This document shows positions 1,421-2,366 of a DNA stretch of 64,000 bases, piece after piece. The notes below the pieces were generated by a model, which saw only the letters and a program-made list of their open reading frames with translations, was not told the origin of the DNA and ran no database searches. The first letter of the stretch is position 1. The number at the start of each line of letters is the position of its first letter. The DNA comes from Octopus vulgaris (lineage: Eukaryota). The position numbers and the translations under genes were made by a program. The DNA lies in the NCBI GenBank assembly GCA_951406725.2, contig OX597825.1, positions 17,732,001 to 17,796,000 of the forward strand, read 5' to 3'.

Positions 1421-1573
1421 CTTCCCACACGCAGCGATGATAATGACACTAACAATAAAAAAGAAAAAATGAACGTTTCCCTACTCACAGCCTTCGCAGA
1501 GTACACACAACACACATTTCAACAACCACCCACACACATAGTCAGAACACCATCTTTAGTCTTGGTCATAGAA

Positions 1574-1644
<71 letters not shown>

Positions 1645-1807
1645 GTTATTTTGTGACTCACGTGGTAAAAAGTTCTGGAGGGAAATACGAATTCACTTGT
1701 CTATATAAATGTGGATATGCTGATTAGGTTCTGTATGTTCCGACGTCGCTTGATCGGAAATATAGGAGGTATGATTTCCTAGCATTTCTAGATTTATTTA
1801 TCGGAAT

Positions 1808-1865
1808 ATTATGTTGACGAAGGAAATGAATCTTTGATTCTAATCCTGAAACGTGCGTCCATAAT
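1808..1865 (+). ncRNA. Type I hammerhead ribozyme motif (C3U variant)
   Basis: ATTATG-TTGACGA-AGGA.aat.GAATC.ttt.GATTC.taa.TCCT-GAAA-CGTGCG-TC-CATAAT. Stem I is a perfect 6 bp; predicted GUC cleavage after 1859. Confidence 0.75.
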
Positions 1866-2366
1866 TGACCGTGGACCGTTTGATTTCGTTATTTTTCTTC
1901 TGTTTTTGCCATATAATGAGTTACAAATACTGTTGTCTGTGGAGACATATTTTTGCAGTAAAAGGAAATAGCAGTCCTCTGGGTGCTATTTCTAAAACTT
2001 TCGGTATGTGGTCAAGCAACTTGTTGCAAAGACCCTTATTGTTATATATTTATATATATATATACCATGCGCGCACAAACGTGTATTTACACACGCCTAA
2101 GTACATGCGTTCACTAACTCACATACACACACAAACGCACGCACACACAGATACAAAATATTTGTTTCACATTTTCACTCCCTTTTATCCTGTCACAATC
2201 TGAAAAAGTAGAAAACAAACAAACATTTAGTATTAAGGACATCTCATTGATGAGGTCTCAAATGGTAACTAAAACACGCTGACGAACCGAGCTGATTGAT
2301 TAGATCAACCCGCCGATTAATCAAGTCATCTATTTGTTAATTAGCAGAATAGTCAACAAGTTGAAT

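What the first reader, a model, noticed from the sequence alone, without database searches (positions are those of the whole stretch)
1808..1865. Near-perfect plus-strand hammerhead with a C3U core
Seen: perfect 6 bp stem I (ATTATG/CATAAT), core TTGACGA, bipartite stem II (AGGA/TCCT and GAATC/GATTC), GAAA, near-palindromic CGTGCG and a GUC triplet. It lies in a ~400 bp block (1639-2042) between TA-rich tracts. Inference: C3U and the A-U closing pair of stem II may be family features or decay.
Basis: partly seen in the sequence, partly recalled or inferred. Interest (0 to 1): 0.7.

Follow-up and report, generated by a model that had tools for sequence, protein, structure and literature searches.

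The report
Hammerhead retrozyme copy with variant core
This is one shortened copy of a scattered non-coding repeat that carries a predicted self-cutting RNA (a hammerhead) of a known kind, which likely cuts only in pairs and is likely moved by a Penelope-type jumping gene; its odd core base is shared by nearly the whole family and is not decay.

Summary
The motif is there as described. It lies in a 5'-truncated solo copy (1646-2046) of a ~555-bp ORF-less repeat with at least 161 copies. U3 is the family state: 110 of 114 copies, opposite A8 (71) or G8 (39, as here). The A-U pair closing stem II is nearly private (2 of 114); the family has A·A (110 of 114). Stem III is 2 bp capped by a self-complementary segment that occurs as 6, 8 or 10 nt (95 of 114 fully self-complementary), and folding favours a double hammerhead. 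Insertions end at two fixed sites in (TA)n, are 5'-truncated, and form partial tandems and head-to-head pairs with unequal ends (13 of 14): Penelope footprints. Verdict: new member of the animal non-LTR retrozymes. U3-A8 cores and stem II base mismatches are already in print. Cleavage, circles and the mobilising enzyme are not shown; this lone U3·G8 copy is probably weak or inert. The scan reported similar families and unequal ends before, on other DNA.

The parts
1646..2046 (+). 5'-truncated solo copy of a ~555-bp non-coding hammerhead repeat; starts at unit position 342 and ends at unit position ~186 counted from the cleavage site (end site A)
   Evidence: BLAST to the tandem unit of L004, 399 nt at 92%; 42 other places in the best-scored set, most at 88-94%
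1573..1639 (.). (TA)n tract on the 5' side; target microsatellite
   Evidence: same target type at other copies
2043..2064 (.). (TA)n tract on the 3' side, merging with the element's own TA-like end site A
   Evidence: sequence; TA follows 57 of 68 A ends and 40 of 49 B ends
1808..1813 (+). stem I, 5' strand
   Evidence: pairs with 1860-1865 in 105-113 of 114 copies per pair
1814..1820 (+). core strand U3 U4 G5 A6 C7 G8 A9; U3 is the family state, position 8 is A or G, C7 with G8 is private to this copy
1821..1847 (+). stem II: position 1821/1847 (A-U here, A·A in the family), 3-bp helix 1822-1824/1844-1846, 3x3 internal loop, 5-bp helix 1828-1832/1836-1840
   Evidence: C-G (71) to U-A (29) compensatory change at 1832/1836; G-U wobbles at 1830/1838 (15) and 1828/1840 (11); one recurrent mismatch C·A at 1831/1837 (12)
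1848..1851 (+). core strand G12 A13 A14 A15.1
   Evidence: 112-113 of 114 copies per position; outside the search pattern
1851..1858 (+). self-complementary 8-nt segment: 2-bp stem III in a monomer, predicted 8-bp intermolecular stem III in a dimer
1859..1860 (+). predicted cleavage site, 3' of C17 (1859) in the GUC triplet
   Evidence: position by hammerhead consensus; C17 in 110 of 114; cleavage not tested
1860..1865 (+). stem I, 3' strand
1965..1992 (+). 9-bp hairpin (1965-1973 with 1984-1992) upstream of end site A; its 3' arm recurs in distantly related families
   Evidence: read by eye; function not tested

Best explanation
This is a truncated genomic copy of a ~555-nt non-coding repeat family whose type I hammerhead has a variant core, likely cuts slowly and only as a pair, and is likely copied into (TA)n tracts by a Penelope-like reverse transcriptase borrowed in trans. 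Shown: family, unit length, fixed U3, A/G at 8, A·A at the base of stem II, self-complementary stem III, insertion anatomy. Inferred: transcription through a tandem copy brings two motifs together; their self-complementary segments pair into a full stem III; both cut after GUC and release a unit-length RNA that is closed into a circle; the enzyme nicks (TA)n and primes at two fixed sites about 190-200 and 290-300 nt downstream of the cut, reading back through the ribozyme junction. One priming event gives a solo copy like this one (site A), two give head-to-head pairs with one A and one B end. The window copy has one motif, the weaker U3·G8 pair and no partner, so it is most likely a dead or nearly dead product; its A-U pair is a chance mutation.
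For: Family: 1841 candidates, 40 scored, 43 places; 161 exact matches to a 22-nt pattern, control 0; three head-to-tail units spaced 556 and 554 bp in L004. No ORF shared by copies among 50 loci scanned at 170 aa or more. Selection on the motif: 0 of 21 paired/core columns in the 3' half (outside the pattern) have a second allele at 8% or more, against 87 of 313 flank columns (Fisher p 0.0018); 102 of 114 keep an intact core. Position 3/8: UA 71, UG 39, CG 3, CA 1; position 8 is never a pyrimidine while position 7 takes all four bases. Stem III: four recurrent forms of 6, 8, 8 and 10 nt cover 83 of 114 copies, all self-complementary; a random 2-nt insertion keeps this in 7-13 of 64-88 cases, a 1-nt insertion never. 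Double-hammerhead fold within 2 kcal/mol of the dimer MFE in 68 of 112 copies, single fold within 2 of the monomer MFE in 14 of 112. Related families at 61-70% identity carry canonical C3-G8, different but pairing stem I strands and an A·A or U·U mismatch at the base of stem II. Ends: of 146 segments, 68 end at A, 49 at B, 29 elsewhere; 5' ends are scattered; 22 exceed one unit; only 3 (5') and 2 (3') lie within 10 nt of the cut; of 27 head-to-head pairs, 14 have both ends at A or B and 13 of these are A+B (p 0.0007). These match the Penelope pattern in PMC8557442 (passages). The genome holds Penelope-type elements with 781-aa open frames that also end in (TA)n.
Against: No cleavage, circle or strand-specific transcript was observed. 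In a pairwise mutagenesis of one type III hammerhead, all single and double mutants around the C3-G8 pair had low activity except the G-C swap (PMC9901934, passages), so U3·G8 and even U3-A8 may be poor. For the window copy the dimer hammerhead is 2.7 kcal/mol above the dimer MFE. Only 3 of 103 loci hold two full motifs on one strand; 93 hold one. No autonomous partner was found: the 3' tail profile matched none of the Penelope ends in 40 loci, apart from nested copies of the family itself. Copies longer than one unit also follow from linear read-through of a tandem, so circles are not required. Samples were chosen by similarity or by a pattern fixing 19 of positions 1808-1829, and by a profile hit, which favours intact motifs; columns and copies are not independent. 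The tree is weak (61 of 101 inner branches open).
Confidence: 0.72

Rival explanations
1. The family ribozyme lost its activity when U3 was fixed; the element kept spreading as an uncleaved passenger RNA, and the motif is conserved as a fold or protein-binding site.
For: Core mutants at 3/8 are mostly poor in one mutagenesis study; U3·G8 is carried by 39 of 114 copies in several branches; A·A replaces the usual G10.1-C11.1 closure; no insertion ends cluster at the cut; Naiads spread without canonical hammerheads.
Against: Cleavage triplet, G12-A14, A15.1-U16.1 and stem I stay fixed across subfamilies; stem III lengthened in steps of two bases while staying self-complementary; U3-A8 is described as natural and active in vitro (PMC3088659 section 8).
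Confidence: 0.17
2. The block is the truncated 3' pseudo-LTR of an autonomous Penelope-like element, not a separate non-autonomous family.
For: Same insertion anatomy as Penelope elements, most of whose copies are 5'-truncated; their repeats carry such motifs, including U3-A8.
Against: Copies extending upstream run into another copy of the unit, not an ORF: 22 of 146 segments exceed one unit and L004 has three units head to tail; no shared ORF next to copies in 50 loci. The one copy beside a Penelope ORF is separated from it by a TA tract.
Confidence: 0.07
3. This copy has been adopted by the host as a working monomeric ribozyme, with T1847 selected to close stem II.
For: T1847 does create an A-U pair that 112 of 114 copies lack.
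Against: The copy has other private changes, ordinary branch length, a 2-bp stem III, and a monomer hammerhead fold 4.8 kcal/mol above its MFE.
Confidence: 0.03

Closest known systems
Animal non-LTR retrozymes (Cervera and de la Pena 2020, PMC7229834, passages read; Li et al. 2026, bioRxiv 10.64898/2026.07.22.740005, part 1 of 5 and passages read)
   Same: ORF-less low-GC unit with one type I hammerhead, tandem and solo copies. Axolotl HHR_Amex2 has a 2-bp helix III with a tetraloop and a U·U mismatch at the base of helix II and cleaves better as a dimer.
   Different: Unit ~555 bp against 220-390 bp in the passages seen; mostly solo, truncated or head-to-head copies rather than long arrays; U3 core; A·A rather than U·U; circles and cleavage not shown here.
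Hammerheads in pseudo-LTRs of Penelope-like elements (Cervera and de la Pena 2014, PMC4209133, parts 1-2 of 4 read; Craig et al. 2021, PMC8557442, passages read)
   Same: Type I, palindromic stem III region, U3-A8 variant (about 1,300 hits in Schistosoma mansoni), opposite-strand pairs 100-700 bp apart, 5' truncation, partial tandems, inverted 5' copy, tail at one end only, (TA)n targets.
   Different: No ORF; a canonical-length 6-bp stem I and a retained stem III rather than a minimal motif; an extra base on both sides of stem II; the one-sided tail is about 95 nt rather than 30-40 bp.
Natural core variants of hammerheads (Perreault et al. 2011, PMC3088659, section 8 read; PMC7151607, passages read)
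   Same: U3-A8 covariation and a 10.1·11.1 mismatch are described as natural; a U3 core with G8 from a halophile is cited.
   Different: Here U3·G8 and U3-A8 alternate within one large animal repeat family; I did not find A·A at 10.1·11.1 in the passages read.

Membership tests
Type I hammerhead ribozyme | Three helices around core N3-U4-G5-A6-N7-N8-A9 / G12-A13-A14, A15.1-U16.1, H17, open at stem I | tested here: met
   102 of 114 intact cores
Type I hammerhead ribozyme | Base pair between positions 3 and 8 | tested here: inconclusive
   Watson-Crick in 74 of 114 (UA 71, CG 3), wobble in 39 including the window copy, mismatch in 1
Type I hammerhead ribozyme | G10.1-C11.1 pair directly closing stem II | tested here: not met
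   A·A in 110 of 114, G-C follows one step out; natural mismatches here are in print, so this lowers expected rate rather than excluding the class
Type I hammerhead ribozyme | Site-specific self-cleavage | not testable with these tools
   needs in vitro transcription
Animal non-LTR retrozyme | Non-coding unit of a few hundred bases with one type I hammerhead | tested here: met
   554-556 bp, one motif per unit, no shared ORF
Animal non-LTR retrozyme | Tandem copies with complete motifs in consecutive units | tested here: met
   3 of 103 loci (L004, L025, L082); not met by the window copy itself
Animal non-LTR retrozyme | Expressed as linear and circular unit-length RNA | tested here: inconclusive
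   only contigs of runs guessed to be RNA were available; no ends or strand
Penelope-type mobilisation | Fixed 3' ends, 5' truncation, partial tandems, inverted 5' copy, one-sided tail, microsatellite targets | tested here: met
Autonomous Penelope-like element | RT plus GIY-YIG ORF within the element | tested here: not met
Penelope-type mobilisation | An autonomous partner sharing the 3' end | tested here: inconclusive
   none among 40 loci from the 30 best of 150 scored GIY-YIG matches, out of 6136 candidates

The most novel reading that the evidence does not exclude
The family records a natural tuning series: a canonical C3-G8 core gave way to U3·G8 and U3-A8 while the dimer helix grew from 6 to 8 to 10 bp, turning the ribozyme into a slow, strictly pair-gated switch that cuts tandem transcripts but spares monomer circles, which a Penelope enzyme then copies from two fixed sites about 95 nt apart.
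Probability: 0.3. Interest if true: 0.55.

Novelty: new member of a known kind. Interest (0 to 1): 0.3.

Why it matters
Modestly. The class, the U3-A8 core, the palindromic stem III and a mismatch at the base of stem II are all in print, and this scan has reported like families. What the family adds is a ready-made natural series (three pairings at 3/8, three lengths of dimer helix) for testing the dimer model and the tolerance of the 3-8 pair, and one more case where the uneven ends of retrozyme insertions point to Penelope enzymes as the mover, a link proposed from phylogeny but not shown biochemically in the papers read.

Tried and rejected
Rfam: no hammerhead match; its models miss this variant. 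C3U as post-insertion decay: rejected. CpG decay as the source of G8/A8: rejected, only 1 of 114 copies has C7-G8 while true CpG sites in stem III are changed in about 7%. A-to-I editing of the RNA intermediate: no excess of A>G over T>C among rare changes (32 vs 63 on 6018 vs 10039 opportunities, p 0.46). Position 8 as an exceptional hot spot: it changes 17 times on the tree against a flank median of 4, but flank columns built the tree and other motif columns change as often per minor allele, so only 'repeated switching' is kept. Autonomous partner: not found; the Penelope copies near L039, L050 and L162 look like independent insertions. Expression: no holder on record as RNA; contigs of five runs guessed to be RNA and one of unknown kind cover the family but show no ends, strand or circle; no evidence either way. 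Rows dropped: L006 (overlaps L004); 12 of 126 profile hits that did not span the motif; 10 of 114 copies with short flanks for the tree; 2 of 114 for dimer folding; segments under 70% identity for end counts. Not held and so not read: Lünse et al. 2017 on dimeric Penelope hammerhead variants, Przybilski and Hammann 2007, Nelson and Uhlenbeck 2008; these and the supplementary figures of PMC4209133 and PMC3088659, which I did not open, may already describe this core. Searches for a description of this family listed none.

Full report
Observation. A type I hammerhead descriptor finds the motif once in the window and in 1 of 100 shuffles (thresholds chosen after the fact). The 58-nt monomer does not fold into the hammerhead as its lowest state: -6.4 against -11.2 kcal/mol. 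Rfam does not see it. The host is a 2.8-Gb, microsatellite-rich animal genome; earlier notes of this scan call it octopus-like, which I did not test.

The block is a mobile repeat. Window 1640-2042 gave 1841 candidates in the genome; 40 were scored and gave 43 places, most at 88-94%. A 22-nt pattern over 1808-1829 with positions 3, 7 and 8 left open has 161 exact matches and 0 in the control. L004 holds three head-to-tail units spaced 556 and 554 bp. I fetched 110 loci, dropped one overlap, and recovered 114 full motifs in 103 loci out of 126 profile hits. No ORF is shared next to the copies in the 50 loci scanned. The window copy is 1646-2046, about 0.72 of a unit, alone between two TA tracts.

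U3 is the family state: 110 of 114, 95 of the 100 listed pattern matches (hand count, 61 not listed), and 38 of 38 copies found by whole-block similarity. Opposite it, position 8 is A in 71 and G in 39; C3-G8 occurs in 3 and C3·A8 in 1. The window has the wobble form. The A-U pair closing stem II is not a family feature: 110 of 114 copies have A·A and 2 have A-U. So the family ribozyme has a mismatch, or an extra base on each side, between the core and a G-C pair.

Signs of selection. Because the pattern fixed most of the 5' half, I tested only the 3' half: 0 of 21 paired or core columns carry a second allele at 8% or more, against 87 of 313 flank columns (p 0.0018, columns not independent, copies had to match the profile). 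Stem II shows one compensatory change (C-G 71, U-A 29) and two wobble changes, but also one recurrent C·A mismatch (12). The segment from A15.1 to U16.1 comes in four recurrent forms of 6, 8, 8 and 10 nt, all self-complementary; 95 of 114 copies are fully so, whereas random 2-nt insertions keep this in 7-13 of 64-88 cases and 1-nt insertions never. Predicted duplexes run from -7.5 to -12.2 kcal/mol. The double-hammerhead fold is within 2 kcal/mol of the two-strand optimum in 68 of 112 copies, the single fold within 2 of the one-strand optimum in 14 of 112; for the window copy the gap is 2.7.

History. A quick tree from flanks only (104 of 114 copies; 61 of 101 inner branches open; rooted by my choice on the most divergent copy) puts C3-G8 copies and the 6-nt form at the base and all 8- and 10-nt forms in one starred clade. 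Position 8 switches between G and A at least 17 times, which I read only as tolerance of both. Related families at 61-70% identity (L020, L026, L072, L108) have canonical C3-G8 cores, different but pairing stem I strands and A·A or U·U at the base of stem II (partly read by eye), which suggests C3-G8 is ancestral. CpG decay and A-to-I editing do not explain the variants.

How copies arise. Of 146 segments, 68 end about 185-210 nt after the predicted cut (site A), 49 about 270-305 nt after it (site B) and 29 elsewhere; TA runs follow 57, 40 and 3 of them. 5' ends are scattered, 22 segments exceed one unit, and ends do not gather at the cut. Of 27 head-to-head pairs, 14 have both ends at A or B, and 13 of those have one of each (p 0.0007). 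Truncation, partial tandems, an inverted 5' copy, a tail at one end and (TA)n targets are the described Penelope pattern (PMC8557442). Penelope-type elements with 781-aa open frames are present (9 of 10 loci fetched), but none of those examined shares the family's 3' tail, so the partner is unidentified. Priming at two fixed sites on a circular or tandem RNA is my inference; a linear read-through template is not excluded.

Activity. Not shown. U3-A8 is described as natural and active in vitro (PMC3088659) and as common in Schistosoma Penelope elements, whose motifs cleave weakly and only as multimers (PMC4209133). An axolotl retrozyme with 2-bp helix III and a U·U mismatch at the base of helix II cleaves weakly as a monomer and well as a dimer (PMC7229834). 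Against this, a mutagenesis of one type III hammerhead found only the G-C swap tolerated at 3/8 (PMC9901934). I put the family ribozyme as a slow, dimer-dependent cutter at better than even odds, and the window copy, solo and with U3·G8, as weak or inert. Sequencing runs gave no usable evidence on expression.

Comparison and verdict. It works like, and passes the testable criteria of, animal non-LTR retrozymes, proposed to be non-autonomous Penelope derivatives (bioRxiv 10.64898/2026.07.22.740005). It fails the test for an autonomous element. Six literature searches listed no description of this family; three directly relevant papers were not held. New member of a known kind; interest 0.3.

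Noticed in passing
window 4368-4282, minus strand (block about 4404-4090): A second type I hammerhead with a canonical core, G10.1-C11.1, a long stem II and a perfect 8-nt palindrome at stem III, in another repeat family ending in (TA)n: 2643 candidates, 40 scored, many with inverted partial copies.
   Followed up: partly
L019 1268 (-), L054 3109 (+), L063 1924 (+): A third, compact hammerhead family, also with U3-A8 and a 6-nt palindrome, set in long inverted arms.
   Followed up: no
L020, L026, L072, L108, L039: A superfamily of 550-650-bp tandem units shares this family's 3' region at 61-73% but has different hammerheads with canonical cores; L072 and L108 hold tandem copies.
   Followed up: partly
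L153-L161: A young Penelope-type family with intact 781-aa frames and C-terminal GIY-YIG, 3' end in (TA)n; my type I scan found no hammerhead on its sense strand.
   Followed up: partly
L039 8850-7090 (-) and L050 1-2400 (-): Another Penelope-type family (98.9% identical over 883 bp between the two loci) with a minimal hammerhead-like motif near its 3' end, read by eye.
   Followed up: no
window about 1000-1180 and 2790-2930: Two copies of a SINE-like repeat ending in (TA)n/(TG)n flank the region; the label is recalled, not tested.
   Followed up: no
L043 5685-9159: A young tandem array of about 530-bp period, 97-98% identical to a stretch of L021.
   Followed up: no
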